Origin: an uncultured delta proteobacterium
GTDB taxonomy: Bacteria > Desulfobacterota > Binatia > Binatales > Binataceae
Direction: 5' to 3'
DNA: 64,000 nucleotides
Assembly: GCA_963733715.1 (NCBI GenBank)
Contig: CAVTEN010000025.1
Location: forward strand, 24,931 to 88,930
Shown here: positions 4,040 through 64,000 of the stretch, piece by piece
Numbering within the stretch: position 1 is the stretch's first letter
Layout of the letters: each line of letters opens with the position of its first letter
Notes under the pieces: generated by a model
Told to the model about the DNA's origin: nothing
What the model saw: only the letters and a program-made list of their open reading frames with translations
The model's database searches: none
Translations under genes and position numbers: made by a program

Positions 4040-4250
4040 GAAATGCGTACCTGAGGCCACCCTCCCCGCGGAAGGCAGACAGTTAGTGACCCGGCCGGTC
4101 TCCTGGCTTGGGGTTCATCCTCGGGCCCGCCTTCCCGCCGAAGCGGTGGCATGATGGGCCGTCGTCCCCCCACACAGTTGCGGGGCAGCGCCGGATTTAA
4201 ACCGGCTTCCCGTGCACCGGGTGCGACGCCGAAGTTACGCGCGGCACGGA
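4040..4250 (-). promoter_or_regulatory. Cobalamin (B12) riboswitch aptamer
   Basis: Minus strand reads GGTGCACGGGAAGCCGGTTTAAATCCGGCGCTGCCCCGCAACTGT...GCCACCGCTTCGGCGGGAAGGC...AAGCCAGGAGACCGGCC. Core motifs and B12 box (plus-strand 4093-4107) match the RF00174-type consensus from memory. Confidence 0.85.
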
Positions 4251-10200: not shown

Positions 10201-10747
10201 TCTGAATTGGCGCGCGGCCGTCGGCGCGAAGCCGATCAGCATAGCGGCGGATTTCTTCCTGCATGCGAAGAGCGGCGTAGAGTGAGCGCTGCGGATGGTC
10301 CTCGTGCGCGACGGGAGCGCCGAACAGTGCGAAGATGCCGTCGCCGGTGCTCTGCACGATGTACCCGTCGTAGCGCCGGACCGCGTCGATCATCAGCTTG
10401 AGCGCGGGATCGATAATCGCGCGCGCTTCTTCGGGATCGAGATCCTGCTCGAGCTCGGTCGATCCCTTGATGTCGGCGAACAGGGCGGTGACGGTCTTGC
10501 GCTCGCCATCAGATGAGAGCGCGGATGCTTCCGCAGGCGCGGTCACGCGCACAGCAGGCGCGGCAGATTCGACCGGAGTCGATAATGGCGCGGCGACGCT
10601 TAGCGCCGTGCCGCAATCGGAGCAGAACTTCGCGCCGAATGCGTTATCGGAACCGCACTTCGAGCATCGATTCGACAACGGGCTGCCGCACTCGGCGCAG
10701 AACTTCTTGCCCGCTTTGCTTTGAGTTCCGCACTTCGCGCAGCGCAT
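7282..10747 (-). pseudogene. Large signalling protein: double zinc ribbon + class III adenylate/guanylate cyclase domain + AAA/STAND-type ATPase + TPR repeats. Split in four pieces by three frame changes.
   Basis: Track ORFs 9167..10747 (CxxC zinc ribbons, cyclase FADIKGST...GDGIFALFG, P-loop AEAGVGKSRL), 8722..9126 (ERTEGNPFFMEE), 8180..8713 and 7282..8244 (TPR) are colinear parts of one protein type. Junctions ~9170-9200, ~8740-8755, ~8215-8240. Confidence 0.8.
9121..9232 (-). repeat. REP-like family B element located inside the cyclase-ATPase gene
   Basis: Minus strand ctcacctctcccgcgcctgcgac...gagcgggtgagg shares the ccctcacccgc / cctctcccgc / gcgggagagg motifs of the intergenic copies at 12391, 12980 and 51256. 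Coincides with the first ORF break and with ~35 extra residues between LSALL and LKRLIIERTEGNPFF. Confidence 0.55.
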
Positions 10748-34791: not shown

Positions 34792-34841
34792 TGGTGGAGC
34801 TGACGCGGATCGAACGCGCGACCTCCTGAATGCCATTCAGG
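34792..34841. repeat. attL: 50-bp direct repeat identical to the 3' part of tRNA-Ala
   Basis: tggtggagctgacgcggatcgaacgcgcgacctcctgaatgccattcagg is identical to 44732-44781. The sequence diverges immediately outside on both sides. Confidence 0.95.
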
Positions 34842-35114
34842 TTAGGGCTATTTTAGGCTTATATTCCTAGACTTTTCATATTAGCAAAAACGCTAACTTC
34901 CAAGCCCGTTCAAGTCACGGTTCTAGGCTTGAACACCAGTCATAAACACTGGATATATATAGGCTTTCGTATATAGTCAGGATACAGATCAGAGTTATAG
35001 TTTTGTAGTAAACCGCTAATCCAATGCGTTGATTCTGACATTTCGCCTGCCTGCCTCATCTGCTAGCAATCTGCTAGCAAATCGGGTAACCTGACTTTAT
35101 TGGAGAAACAAAAG

Positions 35115-36417
35115 ATGGCGATCAATTTAGACACAATCGAGATTCGCGATAAGGTTCAGAAATCTACCACTACCAAGCCCGCCAGTATCGACGCCCGCGC
35201 AGAACCGGCGCCACCATTAACCGACCCTCGAATCAGGACGCTCAAGCAGCCAGAACGTGGCAATTCGATGGTGCCTGATGGCATTGTTCCAGGTTTGTAT
35301 CTGCGAATTTCCCAAGGCGGAAAGAAATCTTGGCTGGCAACGTACCGCATAAAAGGCGACAGCAGGATGGTTTACCATACTTTTGGTAACTATCCAGGAT
35401 ACGACACTTGGCAAAGCCCGCGATCTCGCTCGACAGTATCGATCACAAGCCAAGCTTGGGATTGATCCACGGCCACAAGAACAGCCGGTTATCGAACTAC
35501 CGACAGTTGCCGATCTTTGCACTGACTATATCGACAATCACGCCATACATAAGCGGAAAGCCTCACAGTACGAAGACAAGGCCATGATCGAGAACTACAT
35601 AAAACCAAAGCTAGGTAAGCTGACTATTGCTGCGGTTACAAGGTTCAATATCGAGGCTTTACTCAATGAAATAGGTCAGCCCAAGAAAGAGAATCATCCT
35701 TACCGTGCTAACCGTGTACGATCATTGCTCAGTACCATGTTTAATCGAGCAGTCGAGGTACATAACTGGTGTACTAGGAATCCAGTTATAGGAACGATCA
35801 AGTTTCCTGAACACGCTCGAAAGCGTTATCTCAGTGCTGAGGAAGCATCACGGTTGATTACCGCGTTGAGTAACTACAAGGATCAGACAGTAGCTAATGC
35901 GATCTTATTCATGCTCTTTACTGGCGCTAGGTCAGGTGAGGTTTTGAGTGTTACTTGGGATCACTTTCTCGATACAGGTGACAAGGTTATATGGAGCAAG
36001 CCATCAGCCCACACTAAGCAGAAACAAGATCATCACGTACCGCTGAATCCTTACGCTATCGAGGTACTTAGACGGATCAAGGAACATAACGAACCGGATC
36101 AGGTTCAGCTATTCCCAAGTAGAGACGGTAAGACGCATCTGGTAACTATAAAGAAATCTTGGAAAACGATACTAACGGCGGCTAAGATCGCGGACCATCC
36201 CGAATTTGGCAGGTTCCGTATCCATGATTTGCGACATTCGTTTGCCAGTCTGCTAATCAACAAGGGTGTATCGCTTGACGTTATCGGCCAGCTCCTAGGC
36301 CATACCAAGATCTCGACAACGTACAGATATGCACACTTAAACACTGCCTCACTGAGTGAGGGAACAAACAAATTAGCTTTGGATTTTCCAGTCCGTGAGG
36401 TTTCAACCCATGAGTGA
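35115..36417 (+). pseudogene. Tyrosine recombinase/integrase (P4-like, N-terminal arm-binding DUF4102-type domain); frameshift ~35390-35410
   Basis: SD ggag + ATG 35115. N-terminus LTDPRIRTLKQPERG...GLYLRISQGGKKSWLATYR...FGNYPG, then TLGKARDLARQYRSQAKLGIDP in the frame of ORF 35383..36417. Catalytic RIHDLRHSFAS...LGHTKISTTYRYAHL. Confidence 0.85.
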
Positions 36418-36595
36418 CATTGAAATCCGAATAGGTGCGGGCATAGCGCTTACTTTACTGCTGTTTTTTCTCGGCAGAACGCTTGTATGGTGGTACTTTG
36501 GAATTGATAGGGCACTGGAGCTGCTCGCGTCGATTGATAAATCCTTGAAGCAACTGCCAGCGGTCCAACGGTCTACCTATCGCAAAGAAGCCTGA
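36410..36595 (+). CDS. Small single-pass membrane protein, unknown function
   Basis: ATG 36410 overlaps the integrase end. MSDIEIRIGAGIALTLLLFFLGRTLVWWYF... has one TM helix. Followed by a terminator-like hairpin. Confidence 0.45.
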   Translation: MSDIEIRIGAGIALTLLLFFLGRTLVWWYFGIDRALELLASIDKSLKQLPAVQRSTYRKEA

Positions 36596-36613
36596 ACATA
36601 CGATTCAGAACAT

Positions 36614-36652
36614 ATGCCCTGTCAGCCGGAAACGGCTATTCAGGGCATTTTC
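36614..36652 (+). terminator. Terminator-like hairpin after the integrase/small-ORF unit
   Basis: atgccctg..agccg-gaaa-cggct..cagggcat, a two-tier stem with GNRA loop, followed by TTTT. Confidence 0.5.
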
Positions 36653-37326
36653 ATATGTCCGGTGGCATCTCTGCCTAGCCGGAATACTCGGAAGGCTTAA
36701 AAGGGCTGTAATGAGGGAATTTAAATAAAAGAAAACCCACAACTGGGAATTAGTCAGTTATGGGTTAGCAGAGGAAACTCCGATTGTTTTCATTGTGGTG
36801 AATGGTCGCTGCTAGGCGAGTACAACCGGTTTAGTCGGAATGGACGGGAGACCAACTAGGGCTAAGTGTTACATTTTATTCGGAGATTTGCAAGTGGGCG
36901 GCTAAGGACTTAGACAGTTCAGATAACCATTCAATCACCCCATAGTTGCATTTCCTTCCAATTTCCGTTACAAACGTAAGTACTGCTAGGGTTGCTTCAT
37001 TGTTCACTCAGTTCTCAATCAAAGCAGTCAGACGTAAGGCGCTATACTTCACATTGGAAGTAACTTACCTATCAGGACAATCGGTAACACTAATTGATCC
37101 TGACCATAGTACGAATGGAATGGAGAGGGAAACTAAAACACTCCCTCTTTATTAAATCGTCATTGTCATTCCGATTTAATCGGACAGACTCCAGGCCTCA
37201 ACCTTCACAATATAAGAGGTTTGGATTTACAAAAATAACTGTACTCGCATTCCATGCGAGTACGACAGCCTTCCTAGGCTGTCATTATAAGTAATATATA
37301 GGAACCAAGGGAGAAGATTAAAGAAT

Positions 37327-37542
37327 ATGAAATCAGGGAAAATAGAAGAGAATAAATATGTAACCTATGTCTGTGAACTGCTAGAACATGTGCTCTATCC
37401 TAGCATTGGATTAGAACAGAGAGACTTACCAACGGTAATGAGCCTCAGACGCTTGTGCGCAAAGTTTGCCTATGATCTGAAACTTAGTGTCAAACAGCGA
37501 AGCTTCATACATTACCTGTCATATAAGTACTTAGGAAAATAA
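37327..37542 (+). CDS. Hypothetical protein (71 aa), island ORFan
   Basis: SD gggag upstream of the ATG. AT-rich codon usage consistent with the island. No recognisable motif. Confidence 0.5.
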   Translation: MKSGKIEENKYVTYVCELLEHVLYPSIGLEQRDLPTVMSLRRLCAKFAYDLKLSVKQRSFIHYLSYKYLGK

Positions 37543-37545
37543 ACA

Positions 37546-37734
37546 ATGTCAATATTATCAGATGAACAGATGCAGGACTTTGAGGCTATGAGCAGGATTC
37601 ATGGTGTGGAGTTTGCTATTAAATCTGCTGAGAAGTATTTACAGAAGAGACTCAGACGGAAAGGACTTAGGAAGGATGAGCAAACCGCCTTACTAGAGGC
37701 ATTGCGTAAGGAATTGTCAGCTACGGAGAGTTAA
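37546..37734 (+). CDS. Hypothetical helical basic protein (62 aa), island ORFan
   Basis: Starts 1 nt after the previous stop. Predicted all-helical, Lys/Arg-rich (KRLRRKGLRKDEQ). Could be a small DNA-binding or regulatory protein. Confidence 0.45.
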   Translation: MSILSDEQMQDFEAMSRIHGVEFAIKSAEKYLQKRLRRKGLRKDEQTALLEALRKELSATES

Positions 37735-38096
37735 CTACCCTTAGAATCTATCCACACATCCACAAGCACAGTTCCGGTCTCTGCCGTACATGCCAGACTT
37801 ACAGTCGGACTTGAATAGTTGGTCAGGTAATTACCTGACACAAATTCATATCCAAGAGTAGCACTGGGCGTTGTACTTGAAGGCTGACCGTTAACAAGTC
37901 CAGGAATGCAATTCACTGAACCATCACGCGCATGCATGGTCCAGTATAATCGTGTTGGGTCGAATGCTAGTACCTGAGTATTGGTAGTTACAGAGACTTG
38001 AATATAGCTTGGACTGCCTGTCACGATCTGAGCCCTAGAGACACCGGACATAGATATTACACATAAAAAGATATAAGCGATGAGAAATGTTTTCAT
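37731..38096 (-). CDS. Secreted small beta-rich protein (121 aa), last gene of the island operon
   Basis: Start at ATG 38096 (MKTFLIAYIFLCVISMSGVSRAQ, Sec signal) overlaps the upstream stop as TAATG. Two Cys. Confidence 0.65.
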   Translation of the reverse strand: MKTFLIAYIFLCVISMSGVSRAQIVTGSPSYIQVSVTTNTQVLAFDPTRLYWTMHARDGSVNCIPGLVNGQPSSTTPSATLGYEFVSGNYLTNYSSPTVSLACTAETGTVLVDVWIDSKGS

Positions 38097-39877
38097 TAGA
38101 CTGGTACCACTAGAGTTTTGATTTGGGCTGACCAATCCGCTAGAAGTCCTTGAATGTTAGCGGTTGGTATTTTGAGATTTGTAAGATTATTGGTAACGTA
38201 GGTAGCATCGACCAATGATTTGATAAACTGTTCCTTGATTGCTGCAACCTTTTCTCTGAGAAGGATTGCCTGATTTCTTGGCAATAGTAATCCGAAGGTA
38301 TCGACGCGACGTGCCTGTAATTCTGTTTCTAGTAGAATAATTGTCATCGGCACTAGTGAGAGATCAAGGCCACTGATGCCTATAGCTGCTGACATGGCAG
38401 CGAAATCTGTCTGACCACTAAGATAACTGGATTTGGCTTGCTGTATATTGAGCCTGATACGCTGAGCCTCTAACTTTGCCTCTGCTCTTGCAGTAGCCGC
38501 AATCTCACGACCATGAAGTTTGCTTGACGCGATGCCATAGTAGCCATCGGCTAGGTTTGTATCCATGCCAGCGGCGGTTAGACTGGCTACATACTGCGCA
38601 TCTGCCAGTTGGTTCGTGTTGTAAAGTGTATCAATCTCACGTCGATACAAACCTAGCAGCGTGTCTAATTTCCGCTGGGCAACGGTGAGAATTATCAGAT
38701 TGATAGCTGTAGTTCCGTAACCTATATTTGTCAGGTCAGTATTTAATTCCGCTTCAGAGATAGTGCCCAGCTCGGATGAACGTATTACCGATGCAACGTA
38801 GCCCTGTCTCAATGCCGAAACTGATTTATACTCGTAAGCATTTAACAGAGTCGGTATGTTTGTGTCGCTGATGCCGGAATCTTCTAGTAGTAACTGCACC
38901 TGATTTCTGTCAAAAGGCGCGTCTGTGTAGAGATTGGTTAATTGTCTAGGATTGAGTGGCCTAAATGCAGTTGCTTTAGTCGAATCAACATAGTCAGCAC
39001 GAACACCGGCATACGCGAGCAACGTATCGGCCTGCGTATCAGTGATCTTACGGCGCGCATATTGTCCCAGGGCTGGACCGATTGCAGGAACATAGGGTCT
39101 GAACTTCTGATTGACCTGATATTTGCGATTCGCACCTATTGACGCTTCCCAGTACGGACCATGCAGATTCTTGCGGATGTCTTCATAGGCTAGTAGCTCG
39201 ACTAGTAGTACGGCATTGTTTGACCATAGGCTACTCATTGGGTAACCGAGAAACTTAGCCAAATCGCTTAGAATATGAATGCCTTGACCTATGATCCAAG
39301 CGAATCCGAATGCCCTGAAGCCTCTATCTTCTGCATTATCAGGAGTGATTGGACCACCGTTCTCTATAACCGTTTCCGTTAATTGGAAAACTGATTTGGG
39401 TAGTAGATCGACCCAATCACTTGTATGTGTAGTTAGCGATAGAAGGGGTGCCTCTAGCTGCTTGAGTATCGTAGTTGCCGGTGTATTGCTGCCAGTGATA
39501 AGCTTGCCAATCTCATTATTTGCATAGTCGAATAGCTTGGCGAGTAAGTCCTTGAGGTATGAGAGAATGCGATTCGCTTCGGCTGGATCAACACTGCCGA
39601 GATACTTTAATACCTTGATTGTTTCTGGCGCGTAGCGAGATGGATCAATTCTTACTCTTGCAGGGTCGCCAAGAATCTGACCGACCTGCGGATCAATGAT
39701 GCCTAACTCTACCATCCGATCCAAGAGATCCTTACCGGCAATGTCCAAATCATTGATCTCTTTAAGTTGCTCTACAATTCCGCTTACGTTGAACGTCTCG
39801 GAATTGGTTAAAGTGTCGTTTATGCCTGATAATTGCTGAGCGATAACTGTAGTGTTCTTGTCTGCATCAGCAGGCAA
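38096..39877 (-). CDS. Large island protein (593 aa): central hydrophobic segment and long C-terminal helical region; tape-measure-like or membrane-active, unknown
   Basis: Long uninterrupted ORF in AT-rich DNA. Hydrophobic stretch FRAFGFAWIIGQGIHILSDLAKFLGYP...AVLLVELLAY. C-terminal Ala/Leu/Gln-rich helices. No Walker A. TTG start is uncertain. Confidence 0.7.
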   Translation of the reverse strand: MPADADKNTTVIAQQLSGINDTLTNSETFNVSGIVEQLKEINDLDIAGKDLLDRMVELGIIDPQVGQILGDPARVRIDPSRYAPETIKVLKYLGSVDPAEANRILSYLKDLLAKLFDYANNEIGKLITGSNTPATTILKQLEAPLLSLTTHTSDWVDLLPKSVFQLTETVIENGGPITPDNAEDRGFRAFGFAWIIGQGIHILSDLAKFLGYPMSSLWSNNAVLLVELLAYEDIRKNLHGPYWEASIGANRKYQVNQKFRPYVPAIGPALGQYARRKITDTQADTLLAYAGVRADYVDSTKATAFRPLNPRQLTNLYTDAPFDRNQVQLLLEDSGISDTNIPTLLNAYEYKSVSALRQGYVASVIRSSELGTISEAELNTDLTNIGYGTTAINLIILTVAQRKLDTLLGLYRREIDTLYNTNQLADAQYVASLTAAGMDTNLADGYYGIASSKLHGREIAATARAEAKLEAQRIRLNIQQAKSSYLSGQTDFAAMSAAIGISGLDLSLVPMTIILLETELQARRVDTFGLLLPRNQAILLREKVAAIKEQFIKSLVDATYVTNNLTNLKIPTANIQGLLADWSAQIKTLVVPV

Positions 39878-39899
39878 AGCAGCTACTGACGTATTTATA

Positions 39900-40511
39900 T
39901 TATTCAGCGCATGGACTCACCGGAGTTAAATCTATGGGTGTACTCGATTTACCACTGCCTGAAACCTTAATCGCTTGCGAGATCTCATACAGGAAAGCGT
40001 TCACTTGCCCTACGTATCCCCCTAGCTGAGTGCATGTTACTGGATCGAGATTCGTAGGTTGTCCAGTAATGCCCTGCGCCAGTTGTGAGATCTGATATCG
40101 GAGATAAATCAGATTCTGACTGATACAGTCGAGACCATTAGTTAGTTCATCTCCAGGATTACCAACAGGAATACACGGTGGAGGTGTAGGTGGAGGTGGT
40201 GGAGGTGGTGGAGGTGGAGGTGGAGGTGGTGGAGGTGGAGGTGGTGGTGGATTCTGCGGCTGGATCGGTGTAATCGGAATTACAGGATTAGCTTTGCAAG
40301 TCTCCGTAGCTGGGTCCCAAGTAAAACCCTCTGGACATGTCGGAACCTTTTGAACCGCGAGCACTGCGCATAGATGATCCAGTACGCTGGTCCATTGAAT
40401 GAGATCCTGACCGTCGCCATGCTGGAAATTAAGTTCTGCAACTGGAACGTCGCCATATCCATCAGGGCAATCATCGCCCTGAACAGTTGGCGAATCCTGT
40501 GGAGCTATCAC
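39900..40511 (-). CDS. Cys-containing N-domain / poly-proline linker / helical C-domain protein (203 aa)
   Basis: 21 consecutive Pro codons (40188-40250), then T and PPP. N-domain has CPDGYGD...C...CPEGFTWDPATETC. GTG start overlaps the preceding ORF by 41 nt (could be a fusion via indel). Confidence 0.65.
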   Translation of the reverse strand: MIAPQDSPTVQGDDCPDGYGDVPVAELNFQHGDGQDLIQWTSVLDHLCAVLAVQKVPTCPEGFTWDPATETCKANPVIPITPIQPQNPPPPPPPPPPPPPPPPPPPPPTPPPCIPVGNPGDELTNGLDCISQNLIYLRYQISQLAQGITGQPTNLDPVTCTQLGGYVGQVNAFLYEISQAIKVSGSGKSSTPIDLTPVSPCAE

Positions 40512-40776
40512 CGCTGGTAACGATGAACCGTCTCAGTCCGATGTGGATGCTAACGAAGAGTATTATTGGGATCGGGCTGAAGTTAACCGGCGTGCGATAG
40601 TAGCCAAGTGGCAGAGTATCCCAAGGTGCGAAAAATGCGTGATACTGAGTCCATCCGCCTTTCTCGATTTCGTATGTAAAGACCACGTAGCTAAGATTCC
40701 CAGGATGAACCAGTGTGCTTGGGAAAGTAGGCTGTGGGCCTAAGAATGGTGGTGGTGGTATATTGTCGGTAGCCAT
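40471..40776 (-). CDS. Pro-rich N-terminus, C-terminal TM helix protein (101 aa)
   Basis: MATDNIPPPPFLGPQPTFP..., hydrophobic FSPIPIILFVSIHIGL. Co-directional within the operon. Confidence 0.5.
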   Translation of the reverse strand: MATDNIPPPPFLGPQPTFPSTLVHPGNLSYVVFTYEIEKGGWTQYHAFFAPWDTLPLGYYRTPVNFSPIPIILFVSIHIGLRRFIVTSGDSSTGFANCSGR

Positions 40777-40855
40777 TTAATCGTTTGCAACCTGATACCA
40801 GAAGAAACAGCCACAATTGAAACTCTCTTTCGAGGTTAGTGCCTATTCAGATACG

Positions 40856-41308
40856 CTATCCTTTGGGAATGATGAACATAGGGAACGGTGAAAAGTTCGT
40901 AGCACTATCAAACCCGCTGCATCCGATGGCGCTGAACAGTTTGGCAGGAATGAAAGGATTCGGAGTGTTATTGTTATTGCCGAGAGATGTAGCCAGGATG
41001 TAGATCAATCCAGGTGGCGTACCTCTGTCAGGTCGGATCGCTTGTGGTGGTGGCTGCAACGTTCCTAGCACTTCATTGGAATACCAGAAGCCCCATCCTT
41101 CACCAGCGAATCCGCTGACATAGATTCCATATACTTTGAATGTTCGGCCTTGGCTGTCATTGTTGAACAGTGAGACGGTGATATAGTTGCCACCGCTTGG
41201 CTGTGGGTACGGGAGCCTAGCACCACTGACACCGAGATTGTCATCGAACCAATCAGGTGCGGGACGCGTAAGAACGCCTAAAGGATACTTTCCCGATGCG
41301 TCAGACAT
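40856..41308 (-). CDS. Beta-rich island ORFan (150 aa), candidate structural protein
   Basis: SD ggag 9 nt upstream of the ATG. Composition (G/P/N/S/F/Y-rich, alternating hydrophobic pattern) suggests a beta-sandwich. Confidence 0.65.
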   Translation of the reverse strand: MSDASGKYPLGVLTRPAPDWFDDNLGVSGARLPYPQPSGGNYITVSLFNNDSQGRTFKVYGIYVSGFAGEGWGFWYSNEVLGTLQPPPQAIRPDRGTPPGLIYILATSLGNNNNTPNPFIPAKLFSAIGCSGFDSATNFSPFPMFIIPKG

Positions 41309-41325
41309 TAGAACTACTCCGTAGC

Positions 41326-41679
41326 CTAAATGCCTGAGCCAGTTAGGATCTGTTCTGTAATATGAACCTGTCCGCTAAATCCAGGTGTAGTGACAGCGTA
41401 AAAAGCTAGAGTAGGTAGATCGTTATCCTGTTGGAAGTGATATTTGAGTATCTCCCCAGGAGGTACGAGCACACCGAAAATACCTGATACGTTACTTGAT
41501 GTAGAAATAACGGCATTGTTAGAACCTGTATTCGAGAATTGAATCCAGATCCTAGCGCCATTATTAGTTACAAGCGTGGAAACGGATGGACTAAGAGCCA
41601 CATCCGATTCACGTATTATGCCTTCAAGATCGCTATCATACTCCGCAAATAGCAGTTGTCTACAATTGCGGTATGACAT
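41326..41679 (-). CDS. Beta-rich island ORFan (117 aa), candidate structural protein
   Basis: ATG lies 1 nt after the upstream TAG (translational coupling). Ser/Thr/Asn/Val-rich beta-strand-like pattern. Confidence 0.65.
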   Translation of the reverse strand: MSYRNCRQLLFAEYDSDLEGIIRESDVALSPSVSTLVTNNGARIWIQFSNTGSNNAVISTSSNVSGIFGVLVPPGEILKYHFQQDNDLPTLAFYAVTTPGFSGQVHITEQILTGSGI

Positions 41680-41680
41680 A

Positions 41681-42451
41681 CTAACCTGTTACTGAACTGG
41701 AAACCTGTACTAGGTCTAACCAGAGTTCTTCTGCTGTGTCGGCACTGCCTGCGAATATTTCTACTTGAGGTAATGCTGTAGTAGCGAAAGTAATAAACTG
41801 ACCACTTGCTCCATATCGAGCATACTTATAGTCATAGCCGTCATAGCTATTAACCATAGGTACTCCAGGACGGTAGGTTTGTGATCCGCTATTCGGAATT
41901 AATCTAGCTGCGATGCCTGTAGGAGAATAAGCACGCATTCCTATGACACTGTAAGTGCCAGGATCTAGCGAAGTGTCGAGAGCGAATGTTACTGAAGTCC
42001 AAGCATTAGCTGTAACTGTGGCTGAAGCTGTAGCGTGAACTGTGATAGCACCCAATGGGCTAGCAGGACGTACAGGTCCATCGGTGAAAAACACTAGGCT
42101 TGAAACTGTTCCAGGTGAACCTGAGTTCTGAGCAGCAAAGAAATCTAACTCTTCATTGCTTCTGACCTGTAAGGGGTTAGCATAAAAGTCAGTAAATCTA
42201 ACTGGAGACTCTGCCCCTGTAGATCTATTTACTGGAACTATGTCTATGAAAGGTTGAACACGTAAGCTAGCTGATTGTAACTGTCCGCGAATACCACCTG
42301 ACGCTACAACTACAACACTGGACATCTTGTTCAAGTTCTGAACTAGAAATCCATTATTAGTCTTAGGATAGATGTTACTTGTTACAGCATTTACTTGTAG
42401 TAGTGCTGTACCGGACGCAATGCTAGAGCTGTATAATTCGAGGTGATTCAT
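41681..42451 (-). CDS. Island ORFan (256 aa), candidate major structural (jelly-roll-like?) protein
   Basis: SD gagg upstream. Beta-rich, no Cys, no low-complexity. Size is in the range of small-virus major capsid proteins. Function is inferred only. Confidence 0.65.
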   Translation of the reverse strand: MNHLELYSSSIASGTALLQVNAVTSNIYPKTNNGFLVQNLNKMSSVVVVASGGIRGQLQSASLRVQPFIDIVPVNRSTGAESPVRFTDFYANPLQVRSNEELDFFAAQNSGSPGTVSSLVFFTDGPVRPASPLGAITVHATASATVTANAWTSVTFALDTSLDPGTYSVIGMRAYSPTGIAARLIPNSGSQTYRPGVPMVNSYDGYDYKYARYGASGQFITFATTALPQVEIFAGSADTAEELWLDLVQVSSSVTG

Positions 42452-42465
42452 ATTATATCAACCTC

Positions 42466-42912
42466 TTATAGAGTGCCACGTAAGGCAGATACTTGCTGTA
42501 GGTATGAAGTTAAGCGAGTGATATTCTGTGCTGAACCTCTAGGGCCTCTAGGATTCGTTCTGTTCAAGTTAGAAGTGATTGAATCTAACTGAGGCAAGAA
42601 GGCATTCATAAATGCAGTTTCTTTGCTGGTCTTTGTGGTAGCTGAAGCTACGTACTTCTGTTGGCTTGAACCGTTAACAGTCGCTGTGAAAGCAGTAACG
42701 TCAACGTTCTGAAGCCCTTTAACGAAGTTGTTTTGAGCAGCCTGACTTGATACAGCCGCTACCCAGTTAACTGAAGCTGCTGCCGCTTGGAAAGGATCGC
42801 GCGTAGGTGAAAGAACGCCAGTAGACCATTTAGTCCCTGAACGCTGAACGCCTGCTGTCCAATTTGCTACTGCCTGAGCAGGAGTCTTTGTTTGTCTGAT
42901 TGTAAGTGCCAT
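42466..42912 (-). CDS. Island ORFan (148 aa), Ala/Thr/Ser/Gln-rich helical basic protein, first gene of the operon
   Basis: Starts the minus-strand operon at the divergent control region. Repeated W-x-x-G/A-V pattern (ANWTAGV, TKWSTGV, VNWVAAV). Confidence 0.6.
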   Translation of the reverse strand: MALTIRQTKTPAQAVANWTAGVQRSGTKWSTGVLSPTRDPFQAAAASVNWVAAVSSQAAQNNFVKGLQNVDVTAFTATVNGSSQQKYVASATTKTSKETAFMNAFLPQLDSITSNLNRTNPRGPRGSAQNITRLTSYLQQVSALRGTL

Positions 42913-43090
42913 TTTAAACCTTGTGTGCCCATATCGGGCTGCAAGGTTCGCAACTGGCTATTAGCAACGTGTTATGTCTGTGGGATGCAACGTCCGCGAG
43001 ATACACTTTTGGCTAAAGCCAAGTGCGAACGTTGCTAATAATGGACTGTATACTAGAAGTATGATAAAGTCAAGTCTAGTAGGTATTCAA

Positions 43091-43562
43091 ATGGCTATAC
43101 GTATTAATGCAAATCAACAAAGAGAAACACAACTTCTTATGGAATGGCTATTATCATTGGGTAAGACCACTGCTTGGAAAACACATGTCAATGTAGGGGC
43201 TGAAATGTTACAATACAATGGTAAACCTTTCGACGCCAGCCCAACAGAAAGCGTTCGGAGTCTGGAACAGTTGGGCAGATGCCAGGGTCTTCACTGGTAC
43301 TGAGGTACTGTTAGTCGAAGCTAAGATCGTAGCGACTGGTACAGCATATGGTGAAATCTTAGATTATCTAGACCAGTACCCTAGTAGCTCTGACTACAAA
43401 CAGTACTCAACTTATCCAGTCAGGGGCGTAGTTCTGGCAGCGTATGTTAAAGACCGTACAAGAATGCTGTTTTCTAACTACGGTATCCAAACTGTAATCT
43501 TCACACCTGTATGGGCTGGAGACACGCTAGCTAATAAAGTCTTTACTGGAATCGGGACTTAG
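43091..43562 (+). pseudogene. PD-(D/E)xK nuclease-like protein (Hjc/restriction-endonuclease fold candidate); frameshift ~43215-43250
   Basis: MAIRINANQQRETQLLMEWL...THVNVG (helix with Glu, strand), then in the other frame WADARVFTGTEVLLVEAKI, i.e. a D-x13-E-x-K arrangement. Confidence 0.4.
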
Positions 43563-43805
43563 TAGATCACGTAGTACGATCTATAGAAGTTGATTCAATG
43601 TAGATAGTCCGACAATTTAAACTCGATTCAGAGTGATACCCACCCCGTATCGAAAACCTACCCACCCATTTTCAATTTTTATTTTGATTTTCACGATATA
43701 GTTTGCGATTGCAAAGCCGGTCAAACATTTTCCAAGTTACTACTAGGACTTGAATTAGTCACTGATTAGTGTCATATTGGTATGTTTCGCTAATGAGGTA
43801 TATTT

Positions 43806-44072
43806 ATGTTACTCTATAACGCACTAACTCAAATTTGTTCCCAAGCCGGTTCCATCGCAAGACGTCCTAACGGTGTAATGCTTCAAGTGACCGACCGTAT
43901 GAAGCTTCTGACTTTTAACTCTGGCAGGGCATACCGCTGGACTCCCAAGACAAGAGACCTGTTAGCGGATGACTGGGAAGTTATTTCTATAGAGAGACTT
44001 ATAGAAGAGACTCGCTTAATGCAGGAACAGGCCGAACTAGACCAGTCTGAAGGGGCTGAATCCAATGGCTAG
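43806..44072 (+). CDS. DUF2829-like small protein (family that includes the anti-Thoeris sponge Tad2)
   Basis: N-terminal ALTQICSQAGSIARRPNG and C-terminal YRWTPKTRDLLADDWEVI match my memory of the DUF2829 signature (EAL..GKKVARKGWNG ... W.pSQtDlLAeDWeiV). Confidence 0.45.
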   Translation: MLLYNALTQICSQAGSIARRPNGVMLQVTDRMKLLTFNSGRAYRWTPKTRDLLADDWEVISIERLIEETRLMQEQAELDQSEGAESNG

Positions 44073-44586
44073 TACTACGATCTTTGCCCTATTATCCGAA
44101 CCTTTCGAGTATGTTGATCTTGCACATTCAATGTCTATGACCATTCAAGTTACAGCCTTTGAAGATGGATCAGGCTTGATACATCCGACTAATCCAAGCC
44201 CAAAGCATGTACGTCAACATATCGATCAGAATGGATTAACTGAACCGCCAGCGTCAGGAACGCCGATAGGCGTGCAGGTTCCAGTTCTCAGACTGTTTGG
44301 ATCAAGAATCGATAAAGCGAGTCCCTCACCGTATTGGGACATCAGCTCCAGGACGTTACAGGCACAATTGCTGCCACTTCTGGACGTACAGGCTGGAAGT
44401 ACCTCCGACTACCGCGTTAGAAGCCCGCAAATCGGCTACCAGCTACGGCAAAGTACCATTGCTGACACCGATCACGGTCAAGATCACAGCGAATGGTGCG
44501 CGACCGCAGAAACGGTATTCTCTGGAAGTTCTCTAAATACATTGGTCATGGAAATTGGATGCAGTGCGGGGAATCTGGAAGCGTGA
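44065..44586 (+). CDS. Island ORFan (173 aa); C-terminal third may be frameshifted
   Basis: ATG overlaps the previous stop by 8 nt. The alternative frame (track ORF 44297..44536) ends in more protein-like sequence (LTPITVKITANGARPQKRYSLEVL). Confidence 0.45.
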   Translation: MASTTIFALLSEPFEYVDLAHSMSMTIQVTAFEDGSGLIHPTNPSPKHVRQHIDQNGLTEPPASGTPIGVQVPVLRLFGSRIDKASPSPYWDISSRTLQAQLLPLLDVQAGSTSDYRVRSPQIGYQLRQSTIADTDHGQDHSEWCATAETVFSGSSLNTLVMEIGCSAGNLEA

Positions 44587-44731
44587 GGCTGACTTGGAAA
44601 ACTGTATAAACGAGGCTAGCAAGGTAAAATGTGCTAGCACTGTGATAGCAAATCGCCGAATGTGCCCAATTCGAGGCAGAGGGTTCAAACCGCTGATGAT
44701 AACCAAGTCCTTGTGTGCGTTGGGTTTGGAG

Positions 44732-44781
44732 TGGTGGAGCTGACGCGGATCGAACGCGCGACCTCCTGAATGCCATTCAGG
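44732..44781. repeat. attR: 50-bp direct repeat (functional 3' part of tRNA-Ala)
   Basis: Identical to 34792-34841. Confidence 0.95.
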
Positions 44782-44808
44782 CGCTCTCCCAAACTGAGCT
44801 ACAGCCCC
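44732..44808 (-). tRNA. tRNA-Ala (anticodon GGC), CCA encoded
   Basis: Minus strand GGGGCTGTAGCTCAGTTTGGGAGAGCGCCTGAATGGCATTCAGGAGGTCGCGCGTTCGATCCGCGTCAGCTCCACCA. Cloverleaf folds by eye, G3:U70 Ala identity pair, anticodon loop AUGGCAU. Confidence 0.9.
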
Positions 44809-62343: not shown

Positions 62344-62847
62344 CTACTCGATAACGATCATAAGCTGGCCCTTTTCGACCGCCTGCCCCGCGACCACCTT
62401 CACTTCCACGACCTTGCCGGCCTTGGGCGATTTGACTTCGTTTTCCATCTTCATCGCTTCGACCACGATAATTCCCTGGTCCGCTTTGACTTCGTCTCCC
62501 GGCGCGACCAGCACGTTGACGACCCGGCCCGGCATCGCGGATTTTATTTCCACGCGCCCGCTGACTTCGCGCCGCTTGCCGGCCGCGCGCGCCGTCCGCC
62601 GCGCCGCGTCGGCGACTGTCAGCCGCGTCGATCCGCTTCGCGAGGCGACCACAGTTTCCTCGCCGTCGCGCGCCACGTCGAAATCGAACGATCGATTGTC
62701 GACGATCACCGAAAACGAGACCGGCCCGACCTTGCGCAAATCGGCCTCGAAACTATTTTCGCCGAAGCGAATCGCGAACGAGTTCGCGGCGAGCTCTTCA
62801 ATCTCGATTTCGTGCTCGGTGCCGTCAAGAATCGCGACGTATCGCAT
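62344..62847 (-). CDS. Biotin carboxyl carrier domain protein
   Basis: C-terminal biotinyl motif [11 protein letters not shown]. Start assumed at ATG 62847 (MRYVAILDG...), 14 nt after the upstream TAG. Confidence 0.75.
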
Positions 62848-62861
62848 CTGTAAGTGTCCGG

Positions 62862-64000
62862 CTATCTCCGCAGCATGTCGAGCCGGCCGAGCATCCGCCA
62901 CGCGGACGCATTCGGCGCGGCTGCCGGCTGCGCGCCGGCGCCATTGCTGTGATTGGTGTTCTTCTGCGCCGCGATCGCCGCGAGGAAAATCGCCGCCAGC
63001 TCGGCACCGCGCGGCGCCGCGCCGTTTTGATTCGGATGATACTCGTGATTGATAAAATTCGTATCGAAGTCGCCCTTCAGAAACTTCGGATGCGTCATGA
63101 TCCAGCGATGGAAGTCGAGGTTGGTGCGCAGCTCACCCGTAATCACGAATTCGCCGAGCGCGCGCCGCATGCGGTCGATCGCCTGATCGCGATCCGCGCC
63201 CCACACCGCCAGCTTGGAGATCATCGGGTCGTAAAAGACCGGCACTTCGGCGCCCGCGTACACGCCCGCGTCGTTGCGCACGCCCGGACCGTCGGGAAAT
63301 CTCAGCGTCTCGATCTTCCCGGGCGCAGGTACGAAGCCTGCCGCAGGATCTTCCGCGTAGATTCGGCACTCGATCGCCCATCCGCGCTGCGCGAGATCCT
63401 TCTGCTTGAACGGCAGCTTCGCGCCCGCCGCTATTTCGATTTGCGTGCGCACGAGGTCGATGCCGGTGACCAGCTCGGTTACAGGATGCTCGACCTGGAT
63501 GCGCGTGTTCATTTCGAGGAAATAAAAATTGCGGTCCGCATCGACCAGGAACTCGATCGTGCCAGCGCTGACGTAGTTCACCGCTTTCGCCGCGCGCACC
63601 GCGACCTCGCCCATCTCCGCCCGCATCTTCGGCGTGATAAACGGCGACGGCGATTCCTCGACGACCTTCTGATTGCGCCGCTGAATCGAGCATTCGCGCT
63701 CGAATAGATGAACGGTGTTGCCTTGCGAATCGGCCAGCACCTGCACTTCGATATGGCGCGGCTGCTTGAGAAATTTCTCGACGTAAAAGCGACCGTCGCC
63801 GAATGACGACTTGGCTTCGCTCGCGACCGTGCGCACCACCGACGCGAGGTCCTTGCCGTTCTCGACGAATCGCAGGCCCTTGCCGCCGCCGCCCGCGGCC
63901 GCTTTCACCATGATCGGATACCCGATCTTTTTCGCGATCGCCGCGACTTCCGCCTCGGTCTCGAGCGTTCCGGGCGAGCCAGGCACGACAGGCACTCCGG
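62862..64000 (-). CDS. Biotin carboxylase (acyl-CoA carboxylase alpha chain), C-terminal two thirds; 5' end outside window
   Basis: ATP-grasp motifs YPIMVKAAAGGGGKGLR, ECSIQRRNQKVVEE, EMNTRIQVEHPVTE. Frame is open to the window edge. Confidence 0.9.
   Translation of the reverse strand, partial: GVPVVPGSPGTLETEAEVAAIAKKIGYPIMVKAAAGGGGKGLRFVENGKDLASVVRTVASEAKSSFGDGRFYVEKFLKQPRHIEVQVLADSQGNTVHLFERECSIQRRNQKVVEESPSPFITPKMRAEMGEVAVRAAKAVNYVSAGTIEFLVDADRNFYFLEMNTRIQVEHPVTELVTGIDLVRTQIEIAAGAKLPFKQKDLAQRGWAIECRIYAEDPAAGFVPAPGKIETLRFPDGPGVRNDAGVYAGAEVPVFYDPMISKLAVWGADRDQAIDRMRRALGEFVITGELRTNLDFHRWIMTHPKFLKGDFDTNFINHEYHPNQNGAAPRGAELAAIFLAAIAAQKNTNHSNGAGAQPAAAPNASAWRMLGRLDMLRR

What the first reader, a model, noticed from the sequence alone, without database searches (positions are those of the whole stretch)
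34792..44781. A 9.9-kb AT-rich element integrated in tRNA-Ala(GGC) with almost no recognisable genes: candidate novel minimal temperate virus or satellite
Seen: a perfect 50-bp direct repeat (34792-34841 = 44732-44781) equal to the 3' part of the tRNA, a P4-type tyrosine integrase next to attL, and a sharp compositional break (the island is visibly AT-richer than both flanks). Of ~15 ORFs I can only tentatively place three: integrase, a DUF2829-like protein and a PD-(D/E)xK-like nuclease. I find no Walker-A NTPase, terminase, portal, HK97-like capsid, Rep/primase or cI/Cro-type HTH. Established: the size matches the smallest membrane-containing phages (corticovirus PM2 ~10 kb, FLiP ~9 kb) and phage satellites. 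Inference: either a new small temperate virus lineage that lacks a recognisable packaging ATPase, or a satellite dependent on a helper.
Basis: partly seen in the sequence, partly recalled or inferred. Interest (0 to 1): 0.8.

Follow-up and report, generated by a model that had tools for sequence, protein, structure and literature searches.

The report
Integrated small tailless virus without ATPase
The 9.9-kb island in the tRNA-Ala gene is most likely the integrated genome of a small tailless bacterial virus with a double-jelly-roll capsid protein. It belongs to a very large, apparently unnamed environmental family with no DNA-packaging motor; similar motor-less groups are already known, and this copy may be damaged.

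Summary
There is a perfect 50-nt repeat (34792-34841 = 44732-44781) equal to the 3' part of tRNA-Ala(GGC), a P4-type integrase beside attL, and GC of 0.41-0.49 inside against 0.57-0.65 outside.

- The 256-aa ORF (41681-42451, minus strand) models at pLDDT 93 as two eight-stranded jelly rolls. Its best solved-structure match is the phage PM2 capsid protein P2, but the score is marginal.
- A conserved basic 148-aa protein sits just upstream, and a 117-aa single jelly-roll protein just downstream.

A profile of the 256-aa protein finds 1,488 clusters (50% identity) in public data. Relatives sit on complete replicons of the same size:
- two circular contigs of about 9.9 and 11.2 kb;
- a 10.8-kb linear genome with inverted terminal repeats and a protein-primed polymerase;
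- other integrated copies.

No element carries a Walker-A ATPase. A virus fits better than a satellite.

Motor-less small double-jelly-roll viruses are already known (Odin group, FLiP, Chaacviridae). This capsid family shows no sequence link to the ones I could test.

The window copy has five frame breaks, one of them in the integrase. Host genes also look frame-broken, so decay and assembly error cannot be separated.

The parts
34792..34841 (.). attL: duplicated 3' 50 nt of tRNA-Ala(GGC)
   Evidence: 100% identical to 44732-44781. No tRNA is called here, so it is a fragment.
35058..35084 (.). Two copies of the palindromic octamer TGCTAGCA; candidate arm-type integrase or excisionase sites (P' arm of attP)
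   Evidence: TGCTAGCA occurs 3 times in 64 kb, all just inside the island ends; 0.53 expected by chance.
35100..36417 (+). P4-type tyrosine integrase, broken by one frameshift near 35385-35400
   Evidence: PF13356 positions 1-54 fall in ORF 35100-35465 and positions 52-80 in ORF 35383-36417. PF00589 scores E 4.7e-31.
36395..36595 (+). 66-aa ORF with one predicted membrane segment; function unknown
   Evidence: Hydropathy segment at residues 8-35. No Pfam or PHROG hit.
37327..37734 (+). Two small ORFs (71 and 62 aa) in the position where relative L017 has an excisionase-like HTH_17 gene; not homologous to it
   Evidence: No family hit. No tblastn match to L017 or L018 genes. L017 gene table.
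37731..38135 (-). 134-aa protein with an N-terminal hydrophobic segment (signal or anchor); last gene of the structural operon
   Evidence: Hydropathy segment 9-35. No family hit.
38096..39877 (-). 593-aa conserved large protein (524-558 aa in relatives, fused into 934-994 aa in L001 and L003); function unknown. Inferred to be a vertex, membrane or DNA-delivery component.
   Evidence: Homologues in 9 of 10 loci. No Pfam or PHROG hit. One hydrophobic segment at 497-517.
39900..40776 (-). About 400-aa Cys- and Pro-rich protein (CPxGxxWDxxxxxC module plus a poly-Pro tract at 40168-40263), read here in three frames. Candidate host-recognition spike.
   Evidence: L013 (361 aa), L017 (398 aa) and L018 (421 aa) proteins map to frames -2, -3 and -1. 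Faint CBM_14 hits in relatives. Repeat tract.
40856..41308 (-). 150-aa conserved protein (159-174 aa in relatives); probable minor structural protein
   Evidence: Homologues in L001, L005, L006, L013 and L017. No family hit.
41326..41679 (-). 117-aa single jelly-roll protein; candidate penton (vertex) protein
   Evidence: AF2 with 46 sequences: pLDDT 86, eight strands. Foldseek gives generic jelly rolls: Ena subunits, PirA, cupins, a phage cement protein and a plant-virus coat protein. dN/dS 0.17.
41681..42451 (-). [quoted passage not shown]
   Evidence: AF2 with 38 sequences: pLDDT 93.3, pTM 0.90, 8+8 strands. Best PDB match is PM2 P2 (2vvf_A, E 1.5e-3, prob 0.93); the phiCjT23 and PBCV-1 capsids are also in the top 7. 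1,488 clusters in 1.84 billion representatives. dN/dS 0.11.
42466..42912 (-). 148-aa basic protein (pI 11.3) immediately upstream of the capsid gene. Inferred DNA-condensing or assembly protein.
   Evidence: Present in all loci, pI 9.9-11.6, conserved (N/T)PRGxxG motif. No family hit. dN/dS 0.13.
43091..43562 (+). 156-aa conserved early gene with a D...E...ExK motif (possible small nuclease), broken by a +1 shift at about 43231-43233
   Evidence: L017, L018 and L015 encode an intact 156-aa protein. The window matches it in frame 2, then frame 3. Motif. No Pfam or PDB hit.
43806..44072 (+). 88-aa ORF with a weak Tad2-like/DUF2829 C-terminal match
   Evidence: PF11195 at 23 bits against a cutoff of 25; phrog_643 at E 4e-6. 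Conserved in 5 loci. dN/dS 0.17.
44065..44536 (+). Second conserved 156-aa early gene, function unknown, broken by a +1 shift at about 44403-44405
   Evidence: L017 and L018 156-aa proteins match frame 1 (44065-44403), then frame 2 (44405-44533). No Pfam hit.
44629..44655 (.). TGCTAGCA motif plus degenerate copies; candidate arm-type sites (P arm of attP)
44732..44808 (-). Intact tRNA-Ala(GGC); its 3' 50 nt (44732-44781) is attR
   Evidence: ARAGORN, Rfam at 59.7 bits, repeat.

Best explanation
The island is the integrated genome (9,940 bp once excised) of a small tailless icosahedral bacterial virus.

Shown:
- It entered the 3' half of tRNA-Ala(GGC) by site-specific recombination with a P4-type tyrosine integrase, duplicating 50 nt.
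- It carries a conserved, purifying-selected operon: a basic 148-aa protein, a 256-aa protein with two jelly rolls, a 117-aa protein with one jelly roll, and several larger proteins.
- The same module sits on free circular replicons of about 10-11 kb and on a linear replicon with inverted terminal repeats and a protein-primed polymerase.
- No member encodes a P-loop ATPase.

Inferred:
- The 256-aa protein forms pseudo-hexameric trimers of the capsid.
- The 117-aa protein fills the vertices.
- The Cys- and Pro-rich ~400-aa protein is the host-binding spike.
- The ~10-kb genome is not pumped into a preformed shell. It is condensed by the basic protein and enclosed as the shell assembles, as proposed for the Odin group.

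Unresolved: whether this copy can still excise and produce particles.
For: - Attachment sites, tRNA and integrase. The TGCTAGCA motif occurs only at the two island ends.
- Foreign composition.
- Capsid candidate: AF2 pLDDT 93.3 with 8+8 strands. Foldseek's best PDB match is PM2 P2, with the phiCjT23 and PBCV-1 capsids in the top 7. Tectivirus and giant-virus capsid proteins appear among the BFVD matches.
- 117-aa protein: single jelly roll.
- Conserved synteny in 10 or more loci.
- Replicon forms: L005 has an exact 141-nt terminal overlap (circular, 11,239 bp). L008 has a 202-nt overlap (about 9,927 bp). L011 has a perfect 30-nt ITR plus pPolB and a phi29-type SSB. All are close in size to the 9,940-bp island.
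- No Walker A in any element ORF of 50 aa or more, and no Pfam ATPase or Rep in the complete genomes.
- The protein upstream of the capsid gene is basic in every locus.
- dN/dS is 0.11-0.17.
- The capsid family has 1,488 clusters.
Against: - The structural matches are marginal: E about 1e-3 and TM about 0.27. A single-chain C1q head scores as well as PM2 P2. The fold is therefore 'two tandem jelly rolls', not a proven capsid double jelly roll.
- The 117-aa model matches generic jelly rolls, not known penton proteins.
- No sequence link to any known capsid protein: Pfam, PHROGs, PDB sequences, GenBank phages.
- Pattern scans of IMG/VR returned no relatives.
- No particle, excised form or empty site was observed for this element.
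- Five frame breaks in this copy, including the integrase.
Confidence: 0.72

Rival explanations
1. It is the same kind of provirus, but this copy is a dead remnant. Frameshifts in the integrase, two early genes and the spike-like gene have fixed it in the chromosome, and it can no longer excise or form particles.
For: - Five frame breaks in 9.9 kb relative to intact short-read relatives L015, L017 and L018. This density is several-fold higher than the apparent breaks in the 54 kb of host sequence.
- Other integrated copies also look damaged. L001 has a truncated integrase next to an IS. L013 has a split capsid gene.
Against: - Host genes in the window also look frame-broken: biotin carboxylase / BCCP at 62344-63995 and a cyclase-AAA-TPR gene at 7282-10747.
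- The two breaks examined at nucleotide level are +1 insertions in short homopolymers.
- L013 is a metagenome-assembled genome. Indel errors of the assembly are therefore a live alternative.
- The att repeats are still identical, and the capsid module is intact.
Confidence: 0.4
2. It is a non-viral integrative element or plasmid family. The conserved beta-sandwich proteins would be surface or adhesin-like proteins (C1q/TNF-like tandem jelly rolls), not a capsid.
For: - Foldseek scores a single-chain C1q head, and more weakly exosporium C1q-like proteins, alongside capsid proteins.
- The 117-aa model resembles Ena spore-appendage subunits.
- No viral hallmark is detectable by sequence, and pattern scans of IMG/VR found nothing.
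Against: - Replicon size is tightly constrained at about 10-11 kb across three unrelated replication or maintenance strategies: integrase, circular, and ITR with pPolB. That pattern is typical of a capsid-limited virus module.
- No conjugation, mobilisation or partition genes were found.
- The basic-protein/two-jelly-roll/one-jelly-roll gene order mirrors the Odin group and Chaacviridae (PMC5894146, PMC9894754).
Confidence: 0.12
3. It is a phage satellite that depends on a helper phage for its capsid and packaging.
For: Small size, an integrase, a tRNA site, and no terminase, portal or ATPase.
Against: - It has its own conserved structural-type operon under purifying selection.
- Relatives are complete stand-alone genomes, one with its own DNA polymerase.
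- No satellite hallmarks (primase or replicase, capsid-size redirection, helper-sensing regulators) appear in Pfam or PHROGs.
Confidence: 0.04
4. It is a FLiP/phiCjT23-like virus: the virion carries circular single-stranded DNA, which would explain the missing packaging ATPase. The integrated copy would be the double-stranded replicative form.
For: - The phiCjT23 capsid is the third-best PDB match.
- FLiP-type viruses are about 9 kb, lack a packaging ATPase and have a minimal double jelly roll. phiCjT23 is temperate (PMC5894146, PMC9719478).
Against: - No HUH or rolling-circle Rep in any member.
- One member replicates by protein priming from ITRs, which implies linear double-stranded DNA.
- The capsid profile does not hit any PDB sequence at E up to 10.
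Confidence: 0.06

Closest known systems
'Odin group' of double jelly-roll viruses (Yutin et al. 2018, PMC5894146), including Huginn virus of Ca. Odinarchaeum (PMC9246712)
   Same: - Genomes of 7-11 kb with direct or inverted terminal repeats; some are proviruses.
- No packaging ATPase.
- A small conserved protein encoded immediately upstream of the capsid gene.
- A jelly-roll minor protein.
- Sporadic integrase and PolB.
- A PD-(D/E)xK-type nuclease is reported there; a similar motif is seen here.
   Different: - Odin capsid proteins (about 395 aa) match STIV at 100% HHpred probability. The family here (about 250 aa) shows no profile similarity to an Odin-A capsid protein (hhalign prob 0.3%) or to any PDB sequence.
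- No ParB-like nuclease was found here.
- The upstream protein here has a conserved PRG motif and is strongly basic.
Chaacviridae (order Coyopavirales), ANME-1 archaeal viruses (PMC9894754)
   Same: - Uniform 10-11 kb genomes; linear with ITRs and pPolB, as in relative L011.
- Double jelly-roll capsid proteins recognisable only by structure prediction.
- A conserved uncharacterised gene upstream of the capsid gene.
   Different: - Archaeal hosts.
- I found no integrated or circular members described in the text I read.
- Homology of the capsid proteins could not be tested because the sequences are not in the collections at hand.
Corticoviridae / Vinavirales (phage PM2 and PM2-like prophages)
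   Same: - About 10-kb circular dsDNA genomes, often temperate.
- A minimal 269-aa double jelly-roll capsid protein P2, which is the best structural match here.
   Different: - PM2-like viruses encode the FtsK/HerA-type ATPase P9 and a rolling-circle Rep. Neither is present here.
- No sequence similarity to P2.
Finnlakeviridae (FLiP, phiCjT23)
   Same: - About 9-kb genomes with no packaging ATPase.
- A minimal double jelly roll undetectable by sequence.
- phiCjT23 is temperate.
   Different: - Those are ssDNA viruses with an M13-like Rep; no Rep is present here.
- A relative here uses pPolB.
- No sequence link was found.
P4-type tyrosine-integrase islands in tRNA genes
   Same: - Arm-binding domain PF13356 plus PF00589.
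- Duplication of the tRNA 3' part as att.
   Different: - The integrase lies at the end far from the intact tRNA.
- It is frame-broken in this copy.

Membership tests
Double jelly-roll capsid viruses (Varidnaviria, Bamfordvirae) | Major capsid protein made of two eight-stranded jelly rolls in one chain | tested here: met
   AF2 pLDDT 93.3, pTM 0.90, 16 strands arranged 8+8.
Double jelly-roll capsid viruses (Varidnaviria, Bamfordvirae) | Specific structural similarity to known double jelly-roll capsid proteins | tested here: inconclusive
   PM2 P2 ranks 1, phiCjT23 ranks 3 and PBCV-1 ranks 7. But E is 1.5e-3 to 1.4e-2 and TM about 0.25, and a single-chain C1q head ranks 2. No coordinates were available for a proper superposition.
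Double jelly-roll capsid viruses (Varidnaviria, Bamfordvirae) | Single jelly-roll penton protein | tested here: inconclusive
   The 117-aa protein next to the capsid gene is an eight-stranded jelly roll. It matches generic jelly rolls, not known pentons.
Double jelly-roll capsid viruses (Varidnaviria, Bamfordvirae) | FtsK/HerA-type packaging ATPase | tested here: not met
   No Walker A in any element ORF of 50 aa or more in 10 loci. No Pfam ATPase.
Odin group (Yutin 2018) | Capsid protein clusters by sequence with Odin / STIV-like capsid proteins | tested here: not met
   hhalign of profile A1 against Odin-A capsid protein LGVF01378372 gene_2: probability 0.3%. Profile against all PDB sequences, including STIV and PM2: no hit at E up to 10. 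Only one Odin sequence was available.
Odin group (Yutin 2018) | No packaging ATPase; 7-11 kb genome with direct or inverted terminal repeats | tested here: met
Odin group (Yutin 2018) | Conserved small 'cons1' gene directly upstream of the capsid gene | not testable with these tools
   A positional analogue is present in all loci. The cons1 sequence is not in the held supplement, so homology is untested.
Odin group (Yutin 2018) | ParB-like and PD-(D/E)xK nucleases | tested here: inconclusive
   No ParB domain in any locus. A D...E...ExK motif is conserved in the 156-aa gene but has no profile support.
Chaacviridae / Coyopavirales | Capsid protein homologous to MCP-1 or MCP-2 of chaacviruses | not testable with these tools
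   OP413841 is not in the collections. No sequences in the held supplements.
Chaacviridae / Coyopavirales | Linear 10-11 kb genome with ITRs and pPolB | tested here: not met
   The window element is integrase-based and has no PolB. Relative L011 does meet this feature.
Corticoviridae / Vinavirales | PM2-like capsid protein by sequence, P9-type ATPase, rolling-circle Rep | tested here: not met
Finnlakeviridae | FLiP-like capsid protein by sequence and an M13-like Rep | tested here: not met
   No PDB sequence hit. No Rep in Pfam or PHROGs. Genome strandedness is not testable.
tRNA-integrating element with a P4-type tyrosine integrase | PF00589 catalytic domain plus PF13356 arm-binding domain; att is a duplicated tRNA 3' segment | tested here: met
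tRNA-integrating element with a P4-type tyrosine integrase | Intact integrase reading frame | tested here: not met
   The PF13356 model is split between two frames at about 35385-35400. This could be an assembly error.
Phage satellites (PICI, P4-like and similar) | No capsid genes of its own; dependence on a helper phage | tested here: not met
   It has its own conserved capsid-type module, and its relatives are autonomous replicons.

The most novel reading that the evidence does not exclude
The island would be a bacterial provirus of a very large, so far undescribed lineage of double jelly-roll viruses at family level or above. The lineage has at least 1,488 capsid-protein clusters at 50% identity and no Pfam, PHROG, PDB or GenBank-phage match, and my limited scans of IMG/VR found none. 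These viruses would enclose about 10 kb of double-stranded DNA without any packaging motor, using a conserved basic protein encoded next to the capsid gene. The lineage would be independent of the Odin, FLiP and Chaac groups.
Probability: 0.4. Interest if true: 0.75.

Novelty: new variant of a known kind. Interest (0 to 1): 0.6.

Why it matters
If the reading is right, a whole family of small tailless bacterial viruses is invisible to standard virus-detection pipelines, because none of its genes matches a known hallmark. This adds a third or fourth independent case of double jelly-roll viruses that do without the packaging ATPase, which is otherwise treated as part of the defining module of that realm. 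It also gives a concrete candidate for the alternative mechanism: the basic 148-aa protein. An integrated copy in a bacterial genome provides a host link and a starting point for induction experiments.

Tried and rejected
- Pfam and PHROGs on all island ORFs and on intact relatives: only the integrase and a weak Tad2-like tail.
- Capsid profile against all PDB sequences: nothing.
- Capsid protein against GenBank phages by tblastn: nothing.
- IMG/VR pattern scans with an alignment and two single proteins: nothing. These scans reach only close relatives, so absence is weak evidence.
- hhalign against an Odin-A capsid protein rebuilt from the paper's HHpred file: no similarity.
- hhalign of the N-half against the C-half of the capsid protein, and of the 117-aa family against each half: no similarity. 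This is uninformative, because most double jelly rolls show none.
- Profile of the 156-aa 'nuclease' against PDB sequences and Pfam: nothing credible.
- Fetching Chaacviridae genome OP413841: not held. Its supplements hold no capsid sequences.
- Looking up the window's own contig through P0056: masked.
- Empty-site search with a 30-mer across the left junction in metagenome contigs: no hit.
- Promoter and terminator scan: not above the shuffled expectation.
- att repeats of L017 and L001: none convincing. L013 has a possible 21-nt pair at 7748 and 17870.
- Cluster names for 17 family members: all 'hypothetical protein' or unnamed.

Full report
**1. The observation**

One tRNA is present in the window: tRNA-Ala(GGC) at 44732-44808 on the minus strand. 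Its 3' 50 nt are repeated exactly at 34792-34841, 9,940 nt away. Between the repeats GC falls to 0.41-0.49, against 0.57-0.65 outside. GC3 of the ORFs falls to 0.30-0.53, against 0.6-0.8 for nearly all host ORFs. A tyrosine integrase with the P4-type arm-binding domain lies about 260 nt inside attL. The description is correct, and the repeat is far beyond chance.

The palindromic octamer TGCTAGCA occurs only three times in the 64 kb. All three lie just inside the two island ends. This is where arm-type sites around attP would be expected.

**2. Gene content**

At sequence level the island is almost blank. Pfam and PHROGs recognise only two things:
- the integrase;
- a sub-threshold Tad2-like/DUF2829 tail in the 88-aa ORF.

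Short-read relatives L015, L017 and L018 show the intact gene set of this clade:
- early genes of 156, 88 and 156 aa on one strand;
- on the other strand, an operon of 149 aa, 256 aa, 116 aa, 159-174 aa, about 400 aa and about 550 aa;
- then an excisionase-like gene and the integrase.

Against these, the window has five frame breaks:
- one in the integrase, at about 35385-35400;
- one in the 156-aa gene with the D...E...ExK motif, at 43231/43233;
- one in the other 156-aa gene, at 44403/44405;
- two in the ~400-aa Cys- and Pro-rich gene.

**3. The capsid module**

- **256-aa ORF (41681-42451, minus strand).** It has 50 word-index homologues. A profile of it finds 1,488 clusters at 50% identity among 1.84 billion representatives, and nearly all of the 150 best hits listed are 246-284 aa long.
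- **Structure of the 256-aa protein.** AlphaFold2 with 38 sequences gives pLDDT 93.3 and pTM 0.90, with sixteen strands arranged 8+8.
- **Structure search.** The best PDB match in Foldseek is the PM2 capsid protein P2. The phiCjT23 capsid ranks third and PBCV-1 ranks seventh. Tectivirus and giant-virus capsid proteins appear among the viral models.
- **Limits of that search.** E is about 1e-3 and TM about 0.27, and a single-chain C1q head scores equally well. The fold is securely 'two tandem jelly rolls'. The capsid assignment rests on that fold plus the genomic context.
- **117-aa ORF directly downstream.** It models as a single eight-stranded jelly roll (pLDDT 86). Its matches are generic.
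- **148-aa ORF directly upstream.** It is present in every locus, is always basic (pI 9.9-11.6) and carries a conserved PRG motif.
- **Selection.** Between the window and L014, dN/dS is 0.11 for the 256-aa protein, 0.13 for the 148-aa protein and 0.17 for the 117-aa protein.

**4. Relatives and genome forms**

The same module occurs on the following replicons:
- L005: 11,380 nt with an exact 141-nt terminal overlap, so circular at 11,239 bp.
- L008: 10,129 nt with a 202-nt overlap at 99.5% identity, so circular at about 9,927 bp.
- L011: 10,781 nt with a perfect 30-nt inverted terminal repeat, a protein-primed family-B polymerase and a phi29-type SSB.
- Integrated copies next to host genes and integrases: L001, L013, L017 and L018. 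None shares flanks with the window.

The excised size of the window element, 9,940 bp, falls in the same narrow range. One structural module combined with three unrelated ways of replicating or persisting, at a fixed genome size, is what a capsid-limited virus lineage looks like. It argues against a satellite.

**5. No motor**

A Walker-A scan of every ORF of 50 aa or more in ten loci found nothing inside the elements. Neither precomputed nor fresh Pfam scans of the complete genomes found an ATPase or a Rep.

My proposal is inference only. The genome is condensed by the basic protein and enclosed during shell assembly, as Yutin et al. suggested for the Odin group (PMC5894146).

**6. Comparison with what is known**

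The architecture closely parallels two described groups:
- The 'Odin group' has 7-11 kb genomes, direct or inverted terminal repeats, some proviruses, no ATPase, a small conserved gene upstream of the capsid gene, a jelly-roll minor protein, a PD-(D/E)xK nuclease, and sporadic PolB and integrase.
- The Chaacviridae have 10-11 kb genomes, ITRs and pPolB, a double jelly roll visible only by structure prediction, and a conserved gene upstream of the capsid gene.

Membership fails or could not be tested:
- The capsid profile shows no similarity to an Odin-A capsid protein or to any PDB sequence.
- No ParB is present.
- The family has no named member in the cluster tables.
- It has no GenBank phage match.
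- Limited IMG/VR scans found nothing.

I therefore rate it a new variant of a known kind, not a new principle.

**7. State of this copy**

Five frame breaks in 9.9 kb suggest decay. Three points cut the other way:
- Host genes in the window also look broken: a biotin carboxylase / BCCP pair at 62344-63995 and a cyclase-AAA-TPR gene at 7282-10747.
- The two breaks I examined at nucleotide level are +1 insertions in short homopolymers.
- The nearest genome-resolved relative, L013, is a metagenome-assembled genome whose capsid gene is itself split.

Assembly indel error is therefore as likely as real pseudogenisation. The att repeats are still identical. I could not find an empty site.

**8. Host**

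The host is unknown. It is a high-GC bacterium. The only relative in a species-representative genome is a MAG labelled 'uncultured delta proteobacterium'.

**9. Verdict**

The island is real and mobile in origin. It is most likely (0.72) a provirus of a large, unnamed family of motor-less double jelly-roll viruses. Novelty is moderate because the concept has precedents.

Noticed in passing
window 62344-63995 and 7282-10747: Host genes look frame-broken. A biotin carboxylase ORF overlaps a BT+BCCP ORF by 40 nt in another frame. A cyclase-AAA_16 ORF is followed by two separate TPR ORFs that normally form one ~1,100-aa protein. This suggests indel errors in the assembly.
   Followed up: partly
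window 35061, 35072, 44632 (degenerate copies at 44606 and 44643): The palindromic octamer TGCTAGCA is found only at the two inner ends of the island. These are likely recombination-protein binding sites flanking attP.
   Followed up: partly
window 40168-40263; L017 8171-8344: A poly-proline tract is encoded by GGTGGAGG-type repeats. It flanks a CPxGxxWDxxxxxC mini-domain in the ~400-aa gene. L017 carries 78-nt tandem repeats of the same module. This looks like a modular, fast-evolving adhesin.
   Followed up: no
window 4076-4236 (-): Cobalamin riboswitch, 101 bits. Unrelated to the island.
   Followed up: no
L001 17570-19403: In the 66.6-kb contig copy, the integrase is truncated to 201 aa and followed by an IS-type transposase (rve_3, HTH_32). 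This is another apparently immobilised provirus.
   Followed up: no
L013 9995-10763: In the 'delta proteobacterium' MAG, the capsid gene itself is split into two frames. The 402-aa integrase there is intact.
   Followed up: no
L003 9977-10054: tRNA-Ser(TGA) sits on an 11.8-kb contig that otherwise looks like a complete element. It could be an integration junction or an element-borne tRNA.
   Followed up: no
BFVD entry D5L264: The best viral structural match of the capsid model is a 152-aa protein of an 'uncultured virus'. It covers one jelly roll (E 6.6e-7, TM 0.71 on the target, 21% identity). It may be a single-jelly-roll relative.
   Followed up: no
L011 6430-9662: The linear member pairs this capsid family with a protein-primed PolB and a phi29-type SSB, and it has a 1,165-aa protein in place of the ~400-aa and ~550-aa pair.
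   Followed up: partly
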